The notes: generated from the sequence alone by a model not told the origin. A stretch of 38,401 nt of DNA from Candidatus Babelota bacterium (GCA_049325595.1 JBMOLF010000023.1:1-38401), one strand, 5' to 3'. Numbered from the stretch's first letter, positions 880 to 15,340 are shown. Translations and numbers: made by a program.

Positions 880-1102
880 AACTGGCATAGTTTAACGAAG
901 CGGGATGCCAGGCGAAGCCCTGGCAAATAGCCCATGCTATGCTTATCCAGGTCTTCCGGCTTGGCACCGCGTGCGGCATAGCCTTGGCGGCGACGCAAGC
1001 TTCCGTCTTCGCTGGTAAGCTTCGCCGGACACAGACGCAGGGCATGCTTCGTTATCAAAGTCATTTTATGGCTGCGCCATGCGTAGTTCGCAGAACGAAG
1101 CA
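880..1102. repeat. GC-rich palindromic (REP/MITE-like) element abutting the tRNA-Ala 3' end, copy 1
   Basis: 933-966 matches 6967-7000 with 2 mismatches; 1035-1102 matches 7005-7072 with 2 mismatches. Internal inverted repeat catgcttcgtt...aacgaagcatg. Confidence 0.85.
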
Positions 1103-1178
1103 TGGTGGAGCTGACCGGGATCGAACCGGTGGCCTCATGAATGCCATCCATGCACTCTACCAACTGAGCTACAGCCCC
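1103..1178 (-). tRNA. tRNA-Ala (GGC)
   Basis: Reverse complement GGGGCTGTAGCTCAGTTGGTAGAG...ATGGCAT...GGTTCGATCCC...CAGCTCCACCA; 76 nt, G3:U70 pair, anticodon GGC, encoded CCA. Confidence 0.97.
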
Positions 1179-6590: not shown

Positions 6591-6732
6591 TCAAAACTGT
6601 TAGTGGGAAATACCACACATTACGTACTCTTTTTTATGAGTTGGTATTTGTCGAATTAAAATGATGAGTAGGTATGATCGCGTACATCGACAAATGATAA
6701 TGCTTTTATTACTTCTTCTTATTTTACCGAAC

Positions 6733-6818
6733 GAGGAAGTATATACAAGAACTTTGTTGCCCCTGCTGCTTCTTTTCAGACCTGACAGATTCTGCAACGG
6801 CTCTTTATATACTTCCTC
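6733..6818 (-). ncRNA. ffs: Signal recognition particle RNA (4.5S)
   Basis: Minus strand TCTGTCAGGTCT-GAAA-AGAAGCAGC matches the SRP helix-8 consensus, with U-A replacing the usual C-G before a GNRA loop. Closed by a 13-bp terminal stem gaggaagtatata/tatatacttcctc. Classic position upstream of dnaX. Confidence 0.92.
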
Positions 6819-6899
6819 AATTTTTATTTCATGCTATTAAAGACTTGCATCTTTAATATTTTATGGCCAAGTATCAAAACAATGACCAATTTTGCAAAG

Positions 6900-7072: not shown

Positions 7073-7164
7073 TGGTGGAGAGAGAGGGATTCGAACCCTC
7101 GATGCCCCTTTCGAGACATACACGATTTCCAATCGTGCTCCTTCAACCACTCAGACACCTCTCC
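7073..7164 (-). tRNA. tRNA-Ser (GGA)
   Basis: Reverse complement GGAGAGGTGTCTGAGTGG...CACGATTGGAAATCGTG...long variable arm...GGTTCGAATCC...CTCTCCACCA. Confidence 0.97.
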
Positions 7165-11499: not shown

Positions 11500-13947
11500 A
11501 TGTCTGAAACAGAAATCGTTGCAACAAGCAATTCAACTCAGCATACATTGCCGCTTCTTCCTCTCAAAAATGTAGTAATTTTGCCCAAAAGCATTATTCC
11601 TATTATTGTAGGAAGACAGTCCTCAATACAAGCAGTTGAATATGCCCTAAAACATAATCAAACCCTTTTTATTTCGGCACAGAAAGATTCTCGTACCGAA
11701 AACCCTACCGCAGATGACGTGTTTACCTATGGCACGCGTTCGTCTATTTTGCAAGTAATGCGTATGCCTAACGGCTCTTTAAAGCTTCTGGCTGAAGGGA
11801 TATGTCGAGCTCATATGACCAGCTCGCGACAAGCTGATGGTTTTATAGAAGTAGAATGTGAAGATTTGCAAACTACCAGCATTGAACAAACAATTGAGCT
11901 TGAAGCGATTTGGCGTCAATTAAAAACACTTTATGGTACCTATGCACAATTAAAAGAAAATGTTCCTGCCGATTTAGTAACTATGGTTAAAACGGCCCAA
12001 GACATGGATTACATTTCTGATACTATTGCCGTGCAAATTCGCAATCTATCATTTAATGATCGCCAAAAGCTCTTAGAAACCGTTGATCTGCAAGAACGCA
12101 TGATCCTGCTCTGTGGCTTCTTAACTAAAGAAATAGAAATTTTAGAAACCGAACAACGCATTCGTGGCAGAATTCAAACGCAGGTTGAAAAAAGTCAAAA
12201 AGAATATTATTTAACCGAACAGATGAAAGCGATTCAAAAAGAATTAGGTCGCGAAGATCAATCGGTTGAAATTGCACAAATTAGAAGCAAAGTTAAAACT
12301 CTTGGTCTTACCAAAGAAGCTACTGAAAAAGTAGAAAAGGAATTGCGCCGCCTTGAGCAAATGCCACCTTTATCATCCGAAGCAGTTGTTAGCCGTAATT
12401 ATGTTGATTGGATTATTTCTTTACCTTGGAAAAAGATCAGTAAAGATGCTATCAGCTTAAGCCATGCAGAAGAAATATTAAATCAACATCATGCAGGGTT
12501 GCATAAGGCAAAAGAACGCATTATTGAATTCTTAGCTGCAAAAAAATTCTCAAAAACCCTCAGTCGTTCACCTATTATCTGCCTGGTTGGTCCTCCAGGA
12601 GTAGGTAAAACATCACTGGCAAGCTCTATTGCAAAAAGTCTTGGTCGTGAATTTGTCCGTATTTCATTAGGTGGTGTCAAAGACGAGGCAGAAATACGTG
12701 GCCACCGTCGTACCTATATTGGTGCAATGCCAGGTAAAATTGTACAGGCAATGAAAAAGGCAAAAACTATTAATCCGGTAATTTTGCTTGATGAAATTGA
12801 CAAAATGGGCCGCGATTTACATGGTGACCCAGCAGCTGCATTACTTGAAGTGCTTGACCCAGAACAAAACAAAACATTTGTAGATCACTACCTTGATGTA
12901 GAATATGATCTTTCTAAAGTAATGTTTATTGCTACTGCCAATATGCTTGAAGGCATTCCATATCCTTTATTTGATCGTATGGAAATTATTGGACTTTCAG
13001 GTTATACCGAAGATGAAAAAGTTGCCATCGCTCAAGAGTTTTTAATCCCAAAGAGCTTAGCTGAGTATGGATTAAATGGCACTCAATTTAAAATTTCAGG
13101 CAATGAATTACGTGTCATAATTAATGAATACACTAAAGAAGCTGGTGTTCGCCAACTTGAGCGTACTATTGCAAAGCTTATGCGTAAAGCAATACAGGTA
13201 TTGCTCAAAGACAAAAACACTACTTCAATCACGATAACTGATAAACTTATTAAAGAATGGCTCGGTAATCCTAAGTTTAAAAAAACCAGCTTAAGTCTTA
13301 AAAAAGAACGCATTGGTTTAGCAACTGGTCTTGCCTGGACAGAAGTTGGTGGGGATGTTCTTGAAATTGAAACAACAGTGCTTAATGGTAAAGGTGGCTT
13401 AACTCTTACCGGTCAGCTTGGTGATGTAATGCAAGAATCAGCACATGCCGCTTTGAGTTATATTAGGTCCCGTGCTGCAGAATTAGGACTAAAAAGTTCG
13501 TTTTATACCACTAAAGATATTCATATTCATATTCCTGAAGGCGCAACCCCTAAAGATGGCCCTTCAGCGGGTATTACTATTTGTACAGCAGTAATTTCAG
13601 CTTTAACCGGTAAACCTATTATTAACGACCTTGCAATGACGGGTGAAATTACCCTACAAGGTCGCGTACTGGGTGTTGGTGGTCTTAAGGAAAAGCTTTT
13701 AGCAGCAAAACAGCATAATATTAAAACTGTTATTTTACCTCAAGAAAATTTGGATGAAATTCAAGAAGTTCTTAAGGAAGTTAACTTAACAGACCTTAAA
13801 TTAGTATATGCATCTAATATGGATGAAGTTTTAGCTACCGCATTTCCTGAACCGATTTTGAAAAAAGAATCTGAAACGGTAGTTAAAAAAGAATCAAAAA
13901 AGAAAAAGCCTGCTACTAAAAATAATAATCGAAAGAAACCTGCATAA
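11500..13947 (+). CDS. lon: ATP-dependent protease La (Lon)
   Basis: LON N-domain, [21 protein letters not shown], catalytic PKDGPSAG and GGLKEK. Confidence 0.98.
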
Positions 13948-14010
13948 TTATAAACATCTCTTCTTTGCTTCAGATTGCATTTAACAATAAAAAAATTGTT
14001 TTAAAAAATA

Positions 14011-14040
14011 TTGCAAACTGAAATGCTGTTTGGTTATAGT
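14011..14040 (+). promoter_or_regulatory. Putative sigma70-type promoter of the Cys-rich protein gene and hairpin array
   Basis: TTGCAA-18 nt-TATAGT; AAGGAG RBS before the ATG at 14088. Confidence 0.5.
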
Positions 14041-14087
14041 GATTATTAGAAATGTAATTATTATTAACCAACCAAAAAGGAGAAGAG

Positions 14088-14396
14088 ATGAAGAATCTTC
14101 TTAAATTAGCAGTATTTGCTGTAGTAGCTTTTGCTATGGCACAAGTTGAAGCACGATGTCCGGGCAGATGTCCAGTTAAAAGAGAATGCCCAACCAAATG
14201 TGCTGCGCAAACTTGCAAAGTTCCTAAATTAGCACCGGTAAACTTCCAATGTACTCATACCAAATGTGTACCTGGTAAATATCGTTTAGTTTGCCGTATT
14301 GAAAGAGAAGAACCACAACAAGTTTCATATACAACCGAAGAATGCATCGGTTACCAATATGAAGGTTGCTTCATGGAAGGTGAATACGCTGAGTAA
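14088..14396 (+). CDS. Small secreted cysteine-rich protein
   Basis: Sec signal MKNLLKLAVFAVVAFAMAQVEA; 10 Cys in about 80 mature residues; strong RBS. Confidence 0.85.
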   Translation: MKNLLKLAVFAVVAFAMAQVEARCPGRCPVKRECPTKCAAQTCKVPKLAPVNFQCTHTKCVPGKYRLVCRIEREEPQQVSYTTEECIGYQYEGCFMEGEYAE

Positions 14397-14416
14397 TCTC
14401 ACGTATTACCAAAAAA

Positions 14417-14658
14417 TTGGTAAGGCTTAGTTTGGCATCTTGATGTCCTCATTATGTAGGCGATAAAGATGAAAGGCTTGCCTTACCGAAAAAAGTGGTA
14501 AGACTAGGTTTTTTGAGCGATGATGGAGTTTCTAACGAAGCGTCTCATTTTTAAAGCTTGGTCTTACCCGCAAAAAGTTGGTAAGGTTTTCTTTAGGCTC
14601 ATCTGACTCATGATCTGATGAAGATCAGAAACAAGATGAAAACAAGTTAACCTTACCG
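14417..14658 (+). ncRNA. Array of three tandem ~75-80 nt hairpins with a conserved GGTAAG/CTTACC basal stem (unknown RNA)
   Basis: Units 14417-14489, 14495-14571 and 14579-14658. Stem covariation GGTAAGGC/GCCTTACC, GGTAAGAC/GTCTTACC, GGTAAGGTT/AACCTTACC. A-run linkers. G-U pairs work only on the + strand. A T-run follows unit 3. Confidence 0.7.
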
Positions 14659-14802
14659 TTTTTATTTATTTATTTTTCTTATCTTTTTTTATTTCTCTTT
14701 TTTTTAATCACTCAACATTAATAAAACTTGCCTACTACTCAAAAAAATTATTATGGTGTAAGGTGCTATACTTTAGTACAACCCTCTTTTTAAGGAGAAA
14801 AG

Positions 14803-15291
14803 ATGAAACAATCATCTTTGAAAAAAGGCATGTTAGCCCTTACTCTTGGTTTAATTGCATTAGTACCAGCTTGTAGAAGAAGATGCTACGACTGCCCACC
14901 AAAATGTGAAGAACAATGCTATGAAGAAGAAACATGCTACGACAACAACACCCACTATACTGGTGAAAATGCCGTAGTTGAAGAGCATGGCTATAGTCAT
15001 AAAGAATATATCGAACCAGTTGAAGAAGATGATGCGGTAGTATATAACTCTCGCGCTAAAAAAGTACGTAAAGTAAACAAACGTTACAACAATAAGCGTT
15101 ATAATAACAACAAAAAATATGCGACCGAAGAAATCGTAGAAGAGCAAGTTGTTGGCAATAACGATGCTGATTTCGTAGAGGTTGAAGAAATGGATGTTCA
15201 ATATCCACAACAAGCTGCTCAACCTGCTGGTAAGCCTGTATTACCTGAAGCACCAGATACTCTTGATAAAGTTCTTCAATTTGAAGAATAA
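14803..15291 (+). CDS. Lipoprotein with a Cys-rich N-terminus and a charged low-complexity tail
   Basis: Lipobox-like LVPA-C followed by RRRCYDCPPKCEEQC...C; AAGGAG RBS. Confidence 0.8.
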   Translation: MKQSSLKKGMLALTLGLIALVPACRRRCYDCPPKCEEQCYEEETCYDNNTHYTGENAVVEEHGYSHKEYIEPVEEDDAVVYNSRAKKVRKVNKRYNNKRYNNNKKYATEEIVEEQVVGNNDADFVEVEEMDVQYPQQAAQPAGKPVLPEAPDTLDKVLQFEE

Positions 15292-15311: not shown

Positions 15312-15340
15312 AGGGATGGTTAAATCCATCCCTTTTTTAT
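15312..15340. terminator. Intrinsic terminator between the lipoprotein gene and cmk
   Basis: agggatgg-ttaaat-ccatccct followed by a T-run. Confidence 0.8.

What the first reader, a model, noticed from the sequence alone, without database searches (positions are those of the whole stretch)
14391..14670. Unannotated array of three covarying ~75-80 nt RNA hairpins between two Cys-rich envelope genes
Seen: three tandem units (14417-14489, 14495-14571, 14579-14658), each opening TGGTAAG and closing CTTACC, joined by A5-6 linkers. A fourth TTACC-A6 half-site follows the stop codon of 14088..14396. Positions next to the invariant 6-bp stem change compensatorily (GC/GC, AC/GT, GTT/AAC). Inner stems rely on G-U pairs that work only on the + strand. 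Units 1 and 3 share an inner CATCT/AGATG helix while their loops differ, and unit 3 is followed by a T-run. Inference: this is selection on RNA structure, consistent with a polycistronic precursor cut in the A-linkers into discrete rod-shaped sRNAs with a common protein-binding base and variable top. They could act as a sponge, as guides, or as pre-miRNA-sized RNAs aimed at the host. I recognise no known family for it.
Basis: partly seen in the sequence, partly recalled or inferred. Interest (0 to 1): 0.85.

Follow-up and report, generated by a model that had tools for sequence, protein, structure and literature searches.

The report
Three-hairpin RNA tail after envelope gene
Three large RNA hairpins with an identical base sit in a row just after a small secreted-protein gene of an amoeba-infecting bacterium; they most likely end and protect that gene's messenger RNA, and no evidence yet shows them to be free small RNAs.

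Summary
Three tandem 73-82 nt hairpins (GGTAAG...CTTACC bases, A5-6 linkers) lie at 14417-14658. The motif matches 3 times against 0.04 expected. Each unit folds at about -30 kcal/mol, z -5.2 to -5.8.

Selection acts on the + strand RNA fold. Minus-strand folds are much weaker for units 1 and 2. In the only same-genus genome (Dependentiae isolate Noda2021), 8 substitutions at paired columns break 0 of 52 pairs, and two pairs changed on both sides (P <= 0.0016).

The array is unique. There are no further copies in its own genome, in 78 other family genomes (CM) or in 259 other phylum genomes (junction pattern). Rfam, phage and plasmid searches found nothing.

It starts 21 nt after the stop codon of a 102-aa Cys-rich signal-peptide gene and ends in a T-rich tract. 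One metatranscriptome contig joins the coding sequence, unit 1 and the start of the next unit. Distant homologues of the gene carry one hairpin plus T-run at this place.

Best reading (0.55): a structured 3' UTR acting as terminator and layered barrier to 3' exonuclease. Processing into discrete trans-acting sRNAs is untested (about 0.17). Interest is moderate.

The parts
14011..14040 (+). Promoter-like site of the Cys-rich gene (TTGCAA, 18 nt spacer, TATAGT)
   Evidence: Consensus scan. The block is conserved in the sister genome (alignment). RNA contigs begin downstream of it, at 14067 and 14105. Function is inferred.
14088..14396 (+). Gene for a 102-aa Cys-rich protein (10 Cys) with an N-terminal signal-like sequence; the hairpins form its 3' UTR
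   Evidence: ORF. 86% identical in the sister genome. Homologues next to lon in genera g18 and g29. An RNA contig identical over 14105-14380 occurs in a metatranscriptome. No Pfam family.
14417..14489 (+). Hairpin unit 1 (base UUGGUAAGGC/GCCUUACCGA; inner CAUCUU/AAGAUG helix)
   Evidence: An orthologue exists in the sister genome, where all 3 substitutions at paired columns keep pairing. It lies inside the RNA contig of run X17.
14489..14494 (+). A6 single-stranded linker between units 1 and 2 (a similar A6 lies at 14411-14416 before unit 1)
   Evidence: Sequence; unpaired in the context fold. That it is an endonuclease entry site is inference only.
14495..14571 (+). Hairpin unit 2 (base GGUAAGAC/GUCUUACC; 8 G-U pairs; top unrelated to units 1 and 3)
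   Evidence: + strand -30.6 against - strand -12.5 kcal/mol. Absent from the sister genome. Present up to 14559 in the DNA contig of run X3, and the X2 contig spans it.
14572..14576 (+). A5 linker between units 2 and 3
   Evidence: Sequence.
14579..14658 (+). Hairpin unit 3 (base GGUAAGGUU/AACCUUACC; inner UCAUCU/AGAUGA and UGAUCU/AGAUCA helices); candidate intrinsic terminator together with the T-tract that follows
   Evidence: In the orthologue, CAUCU/AGAUG has become CAUUC/GAAUG, so two pairs changed on both sides.
14659..14706 (+). T-rich tract beginning TTTTTATTTATTTATTTTT directly after unit 3
   Evidence: Sequence. The sister genome has GC + T8 after its last unit. G029 has CGTTTTCTTTTTT after its single hairpin.
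14764..14772 (+). Extended -10-like TGCTATACT of the downstream lipoprotein gene, which marks a separate transcription unit
   Evidence: Read by eye; conserved in the sister genome. An RNA contig piece begins at 14785. The scan did not list it.
14803..15291 (+). Downstream gene: 162-aa protein with a lipobox-like LVPAC and a Cys-rich N-terminal part
   Evidence: ORF; orthologue; no significant Pfam match.
15313..15335 (.). Ordinary short GC-stem bidirectional terminator (GGGATGG-TTAAATC-CATCCC + T6) between the lipoprotein gene and convergent cmk. It shows this genome's usual terminator style and shields the array from cmk/recJ read-through.
   Evidence: Sequence. Similar short terminators occur across the genome.

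Best explanation
The array is the structured 3' untranslated region of the mRNA for the 102-aa Cys-rich secreted protein.

Proposed steps. Transcription starts at that gene's promoter and runs through the coding sequence and all three hairpins. The last hairpin with the following U-tract ends transcription. That terminal hairpin then blocks 3'-to-5' exonucleolytic decay.

The upstream hairpins would be reserve barriers. If an endonuclease cuts in an A-rich single-stranded linker, the new 3' end is again a stable hairpin, so the coding part survives.

Shown: the + strand RNA fold and selection on it; the position directly behind the stop codon; one RNA contig that joins the coding sequence to the hairpins; hairpin plus T-run terminators at the equivalent place in homologous loci.

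Inferred: termination at unit 3, stabilisation of the mRNA, and cleavage in the linkers.

The invariant GGUAAG/CUUACC base implies a sequence-level constraint as well. That could be a bound protein or RNase, or homogenisation between repeats. It remains unexplained.
For: (1) Position. Unit 1 begins 21 nt after the stop codon at 14396, and no promoter-like site lies between them. A T-rich tract follows unit 3. The next gene has its own conserved -10-like element.

(2) Co-transcription. Run X17 (RNA-Seq library) holds one 445-nt contig covering 14067-14468 and running on 43 nt. The first 30 of these are printed, and they read as the 3' arm of unit 1, a linker, then GGTA. Run X14 (RNA) holds a contig identical over 14105-14380.

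(3) Strand. + against - strand energies are -30.1/-21.5 and -30.6/-12.5 kcal/mol for units 1 and 2, and -37.1/-12.7 for the sister genome's unit 1.

(4) Selection on pairing. Of 52 pairs in the G000 minimum-energy folds of units 1 and 3, the sister genome keeps 42 unchanged, 4 changed on one side, 2 changed on both sides, 0 broken and 4 gapped. With 3+5 random substitutions, 0 broken pairs has P between 0 and 0.0016, depending on transition bias.

(5) Homologous loci. Downstream of 19 homologous gene copies in genera g18 and g29 (six loci), the local fold lists a GC-rich hairpin of about 30-45 nt followed by a T-run in about three quarters. The rest: G062a ran into coding sequence; G063b showed none that I could name; for G068b and G018b the palindromes are visible in the sequence but were not listed by the fold. 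In G029 the base reads GGGTAAGGAG/CTCCTTACTC.

(6) Enzymes. The genome has PNPase, RNase E/G, RNase Y and Rho. No RNB-family RNase R/II was found. In E. coli, RNase R is thought to be the enzyme that degrades stable REP stem-loops, PNPase is hindered by secondary structure, and RNase E cuts A/U-rich sites next to stem-loops (review PMC2777011, passages read).

(7) Unit number differs between the two species, 3 against 2. That fits redundant barriers.
Against: No RNA 3' end, half-life or termination measurement exists. The RNA evidence is assembled contigs, which cannot show ends or strand, and RNA libraries can contain DNA (caveats).

The terminator scan did not call any unit a terminator, because the loops exceed its limit. 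This genome's ordinary terminators are short GC stems, so 75-nt rods are not needed merely to terminate.

A pure decay barrier needs structure only. It does not explain why 6 bp of the base are identical in all three units while the units are only 56-65% alike overall.

Units 1 and 2 have no U-tract on the + strand.

Only two species could be compared, and the tested structure was derived from one of them.
Confidence: 0.55

Rival explanations
1. The 3' UTR is cut in the A-rich linkers into discrete, stable hairpin RNAs of about 75-80 nt (3'-UTR-derived sRNAs). They would share a protein-binding base and differ in their tops, and would act in trans as a sponge, as guides, or as RNAs delivered to the amoeba host. 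This is compatible with co-transcription and could coexist with the best explanation.
For: The base GGUAAG/CUUACC is invariant in three paralogues that are only 56-65% alike overall. The linkers are single-stranded and A-rich. RNase E/G and RNase Y are encoded. The tops differ between units. An intracellular amoeba pathogen translocating sRNAs that mimic host microRNAs is reported for Legionella (PMC8828724; title and start of the abstract seen in the listing).
Against: There is no evidence of processing; only contigs were available. No Hfq, ProQ or Ro/TROVE protein was found. The best antisense match of any unit in its own genome is one 16-nt palindromic stretch (E 0.016), which is chance level. 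One unit is missing in the sister species. The element is confined to one genus.
Confidence: 0.17
2. The units serve the minus strand. Read on that strand, each hairpin is followed by a T4-6 run, which is the A-linker. The array would then be a triple terminator or insulator that stops antisense transcription coming from downstream.
For: On the minus strand every unit is followed by 2-3 nt and then T5-6 (sequence). The Watson-Crick base stem is equally stable on both strands. Unit 3 folds almost equally on both strands (-29.9 against -28.8 kcal/mol).
Against: The upper stems of units 1 and 2 fold far more weakly on the minus strand (-21.5 and -12.5; sister unit 1 -12.7), because several pairs become A-C mismatches there. 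The one-sided substitutions keep pairing on the + strand, whereas on the minus strand each such pair is mismatched in one species or the other. A normal bidirectional terminator already stands between the convergent cmk gene and the lipoprotein gene. In the sister genome the inter-unit linker is only A4.
Confidence: 0.08
3. The array is a binding platform for an unidentified protein that recognises the conserved base. It would control translation, localisation or turnover of this envelope-protein mRNA rather than act as a passive barrier.
For: Sequence-level invariance of the base across paralogues. The base of the single hairpin in distant G029 also reads GGTAAGG...CCTTAC. This is 1 of 19 homologous gene copies examined, so it is suggestive only.
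Against: No candidate protein was identified. The other homologous copies in genus g18 have unrelated hairpin sequences. Homogenisation by unequal recombination between repeats could also keep the bases identical.
Confidence: 0.1
4. The array is a selfish or decaying palindromic repeat (REP, MITE-like element or tandem duplication remnant) with no function for the cell.
For: The units look like inverted-repeat ends flanked by A-runs. Copy number differs between species. One related strain carries a 17-nt tandem duplication inside unit 3 (run X2).
Against: No other copy exists in this genome. The pattern search gave 3 other hits with unrelated content against 2 control hits, and the CM search found none. 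Nothing was found in 78 other family genomes, 259 other phylum genomes, phages or plasmids. Pairing is kept by compensatory change, and a neutral remnant would not keep it.
Confidence: 0.05

Closest known systems
REP/BIME stem-loops in 3' or intercistronic regions of E. coli operons, and other 3' 'retroregulator' stem-loops. The malE-malF and Bacillus thuringiensis cry examples are recalled, not checked here.
   Same: Transcribed, stable stem-loops behind a coding region, sometimes in tandem, that impede 3' exonucleases. REP stem-loops are described as stable structures that RNase R is thought to degrade (PMC2777011, passages read).
   Different: REPs are 20-40 nt (recalled) and occur in many dispersed copies. 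Here the units are 73-82 nt, all in one orientation, at one locus in a 1.29-Mb genome. No RNB-family RNase R/II was found in this genome.
Rho-independent (intrinsic) terminators, including tandem terminators behind highly expressed genes
   Same: Unit 3 is a stem directly followed by a U-tract and preceded by an A-tract. Homologous genes elsewhere have a hairpin plus T-run at the same place.
   Different: Units 1 and 2 lack a U-tract on the + strand. The hairpins are about twice as long as, and less GC-rich than, the ordinary terminators of this genome. The scan tool did not classify them as terminators.
3'-UTR-derived sRNAs released by RNase E (for example CpxQ and SroC in enterobacteria; recalled, not checked here)
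   Same: An RNA element co-transcribed with an envelope-protein mRNA, with A/U-rich single-stranded sites next to hairpins and an RNase E/G homologue present.
   Different: Known examples are single sRNAs that depend on Hfq or ProQ. Here there are three tandem rods, neither Hfq nor ProQ was found, and no processing has been shown.
Type III toxin-antitoxin antitoxin RNAs (ToxI-type tandem repeats cut at A-rich sites; recalled)
   Same: Tandem RNA repeats separated by A-rich sequence.
   Different: ToxI-type repeats are about 36 nt (recalled) and precede an endoribonuclease toxin gene. Here the units are 73-82 nt, they follow a secreted-protein gene, and the next gene encodes a lipoprotein-like protein with no significant Pfam match of any family.

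Membership tests
Any Rfam family (release 15) | Covariance-model match at or near the gathering score | tested here: not met
   in 13900-15000, both strands, E up to 10, the best overlapping hit is the patAB leader at 20.9 bits against a gathering score of 92; the whole-window scan at gathering scores finds only 2 tRNAs and SRP RNA.
Intrinsic terminator | Stable stem-loop immediately followed by a U-tract on the transcribed strand | tested here: inconclusive
   Unit 3: a 9-bp base stem, then G, then U5AU3AU3AU5. Units 1 and 2 are followed by A-runs. The scan accepts only loops of 3-8 nt and did not list any unit. No termination assay was possible.
REP/BIME | Many dispersed copies of a short (20-40 nt) imperfect palindrome across the genome | tested here: not met
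   only 3 other pattern hits in 1.29 Mb against 2 control hits, with unrelated content; the CM finds only the three units in G000; this is the only three-member array of rod hairpins found outside the rRNA and tRNA/REP-like regions.
REP/BIME | Transcribed location behind or between genes | tested here: met
   The array begins 21 nt after the stop codon, and an RNA contig joins the coding sequence to unit 1.
MITE | Terminal inverted repeats with target-site duplication and multiple genomic copies | tested here: not met
   No copies elsewhere. Unit 3 has an A-run on one side and a T-run on the other.
Type III TA antitoxin RNA | Tandem repeats immediately upstream of an endoribonuclease toxin gene | tested here: not met
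   The downstream ORF has a signal or lipobox-like N-terminus and no significant Pfam family (best E 0.035, below the cut-off). It also has its own promoter-like element.
CsrB/RsmZ-type protein sponge | Repeated GGA motifs exposed in hairpin loops (motif recalled) | tested here: not met
   The apical loops read CAUUAUG-type, UCUAAC-type and GAUGA (folds). None carries GGA. The only GGA in the array lies in the stem of unit 2.
Bacterial Y RNA | Ro/TROVE protein encoded in the genome and a Y-RNA-like stem | tested here: not met
   No TROVE match in G000 (95% complete). No Rfam Y RNA hit.
Hfq- or ProQ-dependent 3'-UTR-derived sRNA | Chaperone present; discrete processed species | tested here: inconclusive
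   Hfq and ProQ were not found in the 95%-complete draft. Processing cannot be tested with contigs.
Cross-kingdom miRNA-like bacterial sRNA | Export to the host and loading into the host RNAi machinery | not testable with these tools
   No host or small-RNA data were available.

The most novel reading that the evidence does not exclude
After transcription as the tail of an envelope-protein mRNA, the array is cut in its A-linkers into two or three stable rod RNAs of 75-80 nt. These would share a sequence-specific 'handle' (GGUAAG/CUUACC) bound by an unknown protein and carry different tops. That would be a genus-specific family of 3'-UTR-derived hairpin RNAs in an obligate amoeba parasite. It could act in trans inside the bacterium or, being pre-miRNA-sized, in the Vermamoeba host.
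Probability: 0.15. Interest if true: 0.75.

Novelty: new variant of a known kind. Interest (0 to 1): 0.4.

Why it matters
RNA biology in Dependentiae (TM6) is barely explored. One search for Dependentiae together with small RNA or hairpin terms listed no relevant paper among the 10 shown; this is not an exhaustive check.

This is a structured RNA element with comparative support, attached to what may be a major envelope-protein mRNA. Its sister species can be grown in Vermamoeba (PMC8812299, whole text read), so the element is experimentally accessible.

If it is only a terminator and stabiliser, it shows how a genome in which no RNase R/II or RNase III was found builds very long-lived 3' ends. 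If the units are released as RNAs, it would be a new sRNA family. The range is narrow, two genomes of one genus, which limits the general impact.

Tried and rejected
Metagenome searches for relatives of the Cys-rich protein found nothing, either with the single protein or with the alignment. The genome-contig search found only the Noda2021 genome. Covariation therefore rests on two species.

BLASTN of the array against 60 relatives found only the sister genome; all other hits were short, with E >= 0.0015 per genome.

CM R1 against 80 family genomes: the non-training hits had E >= 0.036 per genome, and the five best were unrelated sequences.

The junction pattern in 261 phylum genomes gave 9 hits outside the genus against 7 control hits. 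All 9 were coding or unrelated.

ARAGORN found no tRNA-like gene in the array.

Target search: the best complementarity to the organism's own genome was a 16-nt palindromic intergenic stretch (E 0.016), judged chance.

Anti-Shine-Dalgarno mimicry by the CUUACC arm: the 16S 3' end reads CACCUCCUUUC, so this was dropped.

Protein Atlas look-up for the Cys-rich protein: scores <= 0.83, not informative.

Parts of the array without RNA-contig cover in runs X14 and X17: no conclusion drawn.

A whole-genome Lfold run timed out. It was replaced by a scan of 612 intergenic stretches totalling 152 kb.

Earlier findings of this scan: none bears on this locus.

RNase III was not found with two Pfam models. 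The control genomes rang in only 8 of 14, so absence is not proven.

Full report
WHAT IS THERE. Between 14396 (stop codon of a 102-aa ORF) and 14803 (start of a 162-aa ORF) the + strand carries three head-to-tail units. Each opens (T/G)TGGTAAG and closes CTTACC(G/C).

The pattern GGTAAG-N40-70-CTTACC matches at 14419-14487, 14497-14568 and 14580-14657, and nowhere else in the 38-kb window (3 matches against 0.04 expected). A-runs lie before unit 1 (14411-14416) and between the units (14489-14494, 14572-14576). A T-rich tract (14659 to about 14706) follows unit 3.

Each unit folds into a single rod of 24-32 base pairs at -29.9 to -30.6 kcal/mol, z -5.2 to -5.8; 0 of 200 shuffles fold as well. 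The whole 321-nt region folds into the same three separate rods (z -7.0). The 'fourth half-site' exists but is not conserved in the sister genome.

WHICH STRAND AND WHICH MOLECULE. The folds depend on G-U pairs (3, 8 and 0 in units 1-3). They are much weaker on the minus strand for units 1 and 2 (-21.5 and -12.5 kcal/mol). This argues for an RNA read from the + strand, which is the strand of both flanking genes. It argues against a double-stranded DNA cruciform.

COMPARATIVE EVIDENCE. The window is contig C23 of a 1.29-Mb, 24-contig, 95%-complete genome. The only same-genus genome held is the complete genome of 'Candidatus Dependentiae bacterium Noda2021' (AP025250.1). That organism is a parasite of Vermamoeba vermiformis (PMC8812299, whole text read).

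Its syntenic locus reads lon, Cys-rich gene, hairpins, T-run, lipoprotein gene, then cmk and recJ on the opposite strand. It has orthologues of units 1 and 3 but no unit 2.

Taking the G000 minimum-energy structures of units 1 and 3 (52 pairs), the sister genome keeps 42 pairs unchanged. It changes 4 on one side to another standard pair: A-U to G-U, C-G to U-G, U-G to U-A, U-A to U-G. It changes 2 on both sides (CAUCU/AGAUG to CAUUC/GAAUG). It breaks 0, and 4 fall in gaps.

With the 3' partner slid by 1-3 columns, only 6-14 of 21-25 columns pair. In simulations that place 3+5 random substitutions on paired columns, 0 broken pairs occurred with frequency 0 to 0.0016, depending on transition bias.

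For each of the four one-sided changes, the corresponding minus-strand pair is an A-C mismatch in one species or the other. The sister unit 1 folds at -37.1 on the + strand against -12.7 kcal/mol on the minus strand.

Caveats: only two species; the structure was derived from one of them; and overall divergence is modest. The units are 84-86% identical, the flanking intergenic DNA 76-78%, and the coding sequence 86%.

HOW WIDESPREAD. The array is not a dispersed repeat. In its own genome the loose pattern has 3 further hits with unrelated content against 2 for the control pattern.

A covariance model built from the five units finds only those five units (73-86 bits) in 80 family genomes including G000. 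All other hits have E >= 0.036 per genome, and the five best of them are unrelated.

The inter-unit junction pattern occurs in 2 of 2 genomes of the genus. In 259 other Dependentiae genomes it gives 9 hits against 7 control hits, all coding or unrelated. Rfam, phage and plasmid collections and two metagenome scans for the neighbouring protein gave nothing.

A local-fold scan of all 612 intergenic stretches of the genome shows two things. Ordinary terminators here are short GC stems flanked by A- and T-runs. This is also the only three-member array of rod hairpins that all reach -30 kcal/mol or better.

CONTEXT. The upstream ORF encodes a 102-aa protein with a signal-like N-terminus and 10 cysteines. 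It has a strong Shine-Dalgarno-like AAAGGAGAAG and a promoter-like TTGCAA-18-TATAGT that is conserved in the sister genome.

Profile search finds the protein family, with clear scores, only in three genera of the family: g1 (2 of 2 genomes, G000 included), g18 (8 of 8, with 2-4 tandem paralogues) and g29 (1 of 1). In the loci inspected it lies beside lon.

Downstream of 19 homologous gene copies (six loci), the local fold lists a GC-rich hairpin of about 30-45 nt followed by a T-run, an ordinary intrinsic-terminator shape, in about three quarters. The exceptions are these. G062a ran into coding sequence. G063b showed none that I could name. For G068b and G018b the palindromes are visible in the sequence but were not listed by the fold.

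In G029 the single hairpin's base reads GGGTAAGGAG...CTCCTTACTC, resembling the base here. This is 1 of 19 copies: suggestive of common descent or a common constraint, not proof.

The downstream 162-aa ORF has a lipobox-like LVPAC and a conserved extended -10-like element of its own. A normal bidirectional terminator separates it from the convergent cmk gene.

RNA EVIDENCE. Of 24 public runs listed for the locus, 6 are RNA libraries with small shares of its words. I laid two DNA and two RNA runs, all as assembled contigs.

RNA run X14 holds a 277-nt contig identical to 14105-14380. RNA run X17 holds a 445-nt contig from a related strain (9 differences). It covers 14067-14468 and continues for 43 nt. 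The first 30 of these are printed, and they read as the rest of unit 1's 3' arm, a linker (GGAAAATA), then GGTA.

So the coding sequence, unit 1 and the start of the next unit stand on one RNA-library contig. That fits a 3' UTR. Contigs cannot show ends, strand or abundance, and RNA libraries may contain DNA. Parts without cover say nothing.

DNA run X2 (one 34.5-kb contig) spans the locus. It shows a 17-nt tandem duplication inside unit 3 and one T fewer in unit 2. Run X3 confirms units 1 and 2 up to 14559.

MECHANISM. The simplest account is a structured 3' UTR. Unit 3 plus the U-tract terminates transcription. The terminal rod blocks 3'-to-5' decay. The upstream rods are reserve barriers that become the 3' end after any cut in the A-rich linkers.

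The genome encodes PNPase, RNase E/G, RNase Y and Rho. No RNB-family RNase R/II was found. In E. coli, RNase R is thought to be the enzyme that degrades stable REP stem-loops, PNPase is hindered by structure, and RNase E prefers A/U-rich sites next to stem-loops (PMC2777011, passages read). RNase III was not found in G000, G001 or G029; the control sensitivity was imperfect.

Unit 2 is only 56-60% identical to units 1 and 3. It is therefore older than the split of the two species and was probably lost in Noda2021, by recombination between the repeated linker and base sequences (inference). Single units would then be dispensable, as expected for redundant barriers.

WHAT THIS DOES NOT EXPLAIN. 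Six base pairs at the foot of each rod are identical in all three paralogues, with one A-to-G wobble in the sister unit 1. The rest of the units has diverged or is unrelated.

Structure alone would allow covariation there. So either a factor reads this sequence or the repeats homogenise each other.

I found no support for it beyond anatomy. Hfq, ProQ and Ro were not found. No convincing target complementarity turned up. There are no processing data.

The minus-strand terminator reading is weakened by the poor minus-strand folds and by the existing terminator at 15313-15335. In that reading each unit is followed by T4-6 on the minus strand. The selfish-repeat reading is weakened by the absence of other copies and by the compensatory changes.

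VERDICT. This is a real, strand-specific, selected RNA structure confined to one genus of Dependentiae. The best reading is a new variant of the known class of protective and terminating 3'-UTR stem-loops (confidence 0.55). An untested possibility is that the units are released as RNAs: about 0.15-0.17, which overlaps the best reading. Interest is 0.4. The sister strain is cultivable, so Term-seq, small-RNA-seq and Northern blots can settle the question.

Noticed in passing
G000 contigs C7:69417-69467, C10:149688-149777, C10:153508-153557, C12:30782-30845, C15:225316-225470: A different hairpin of about 30 nt, consensus roughly GCTTATCC(A/G)GGCC...GGC(T/C)(T/C)GGCAAGC, recurs at several intergenic places, some in clusters. 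It looks like a true dispersed REP-like family of this genome.
   Followed up: no
G000 C9:90199-90297 and C17:2119-2215: Two copies of a palindromic element of about 97 nt beginning TGCTAAGCTTCTAAAA fold on both strands at -29 to -35 kcal/mol. It may be a MITE or an IS end.
   Followed up: no
window 900-1100 (+): A cluster of very stable local folds (down to -38.8 kcal/mol) lies next to tRNA-Ala (1103-1178, minus strand). No Rfam family at gathering score covers it.
   Followed up: no
window 14382-14408: In the context fold, a small hairpin AAUACG-C-UGAG-UAAU-CUCA-CGUAUU places the UAA stop codon of the Cys-rich gene in its loop. It is only partly conserved in the sister genome.
   Followed up: partly
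G000 whole genome; G001, G029: No RNase III (PF14622, PF00636), RNB-family exonuclease, Hfq, ProQ or TROVE match was found in G000. PF14622 is also absent from the complete sister genome and from G029. RNase E/G, RNase Y, PNPase and Rho are present. The RNase III control rang in only 8 of 14 reference genomes.
   Followed up: partly
loci L062-L090 (genus g18), L067 (G029): The Cys-rich signal-peptide protein family beside lon is found with clear scores in only three genera of the family. In genus g18 it stands in 2-4 tandem paralogues, most with their own hairpin and T-run terminator.
   Followed up: partly
window 14597 and 14509 (run X2 contig): A related strain (57 differences over 1601 nt) carries a 17-nt tandem duplication, CTCATCTGACTCATGAT, in the 5' arm of unit 3 and one T fewer in unit 2. 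Its effect on folding was not examined.
   Followed up: no
window 6728-6820 (-), 1103-1178 (-), 7073-7164 (-): SRP RNA, tRNA-Ala(GGC) and tRNA-Ser(GGA) lie in the window.
   Followed up: yes
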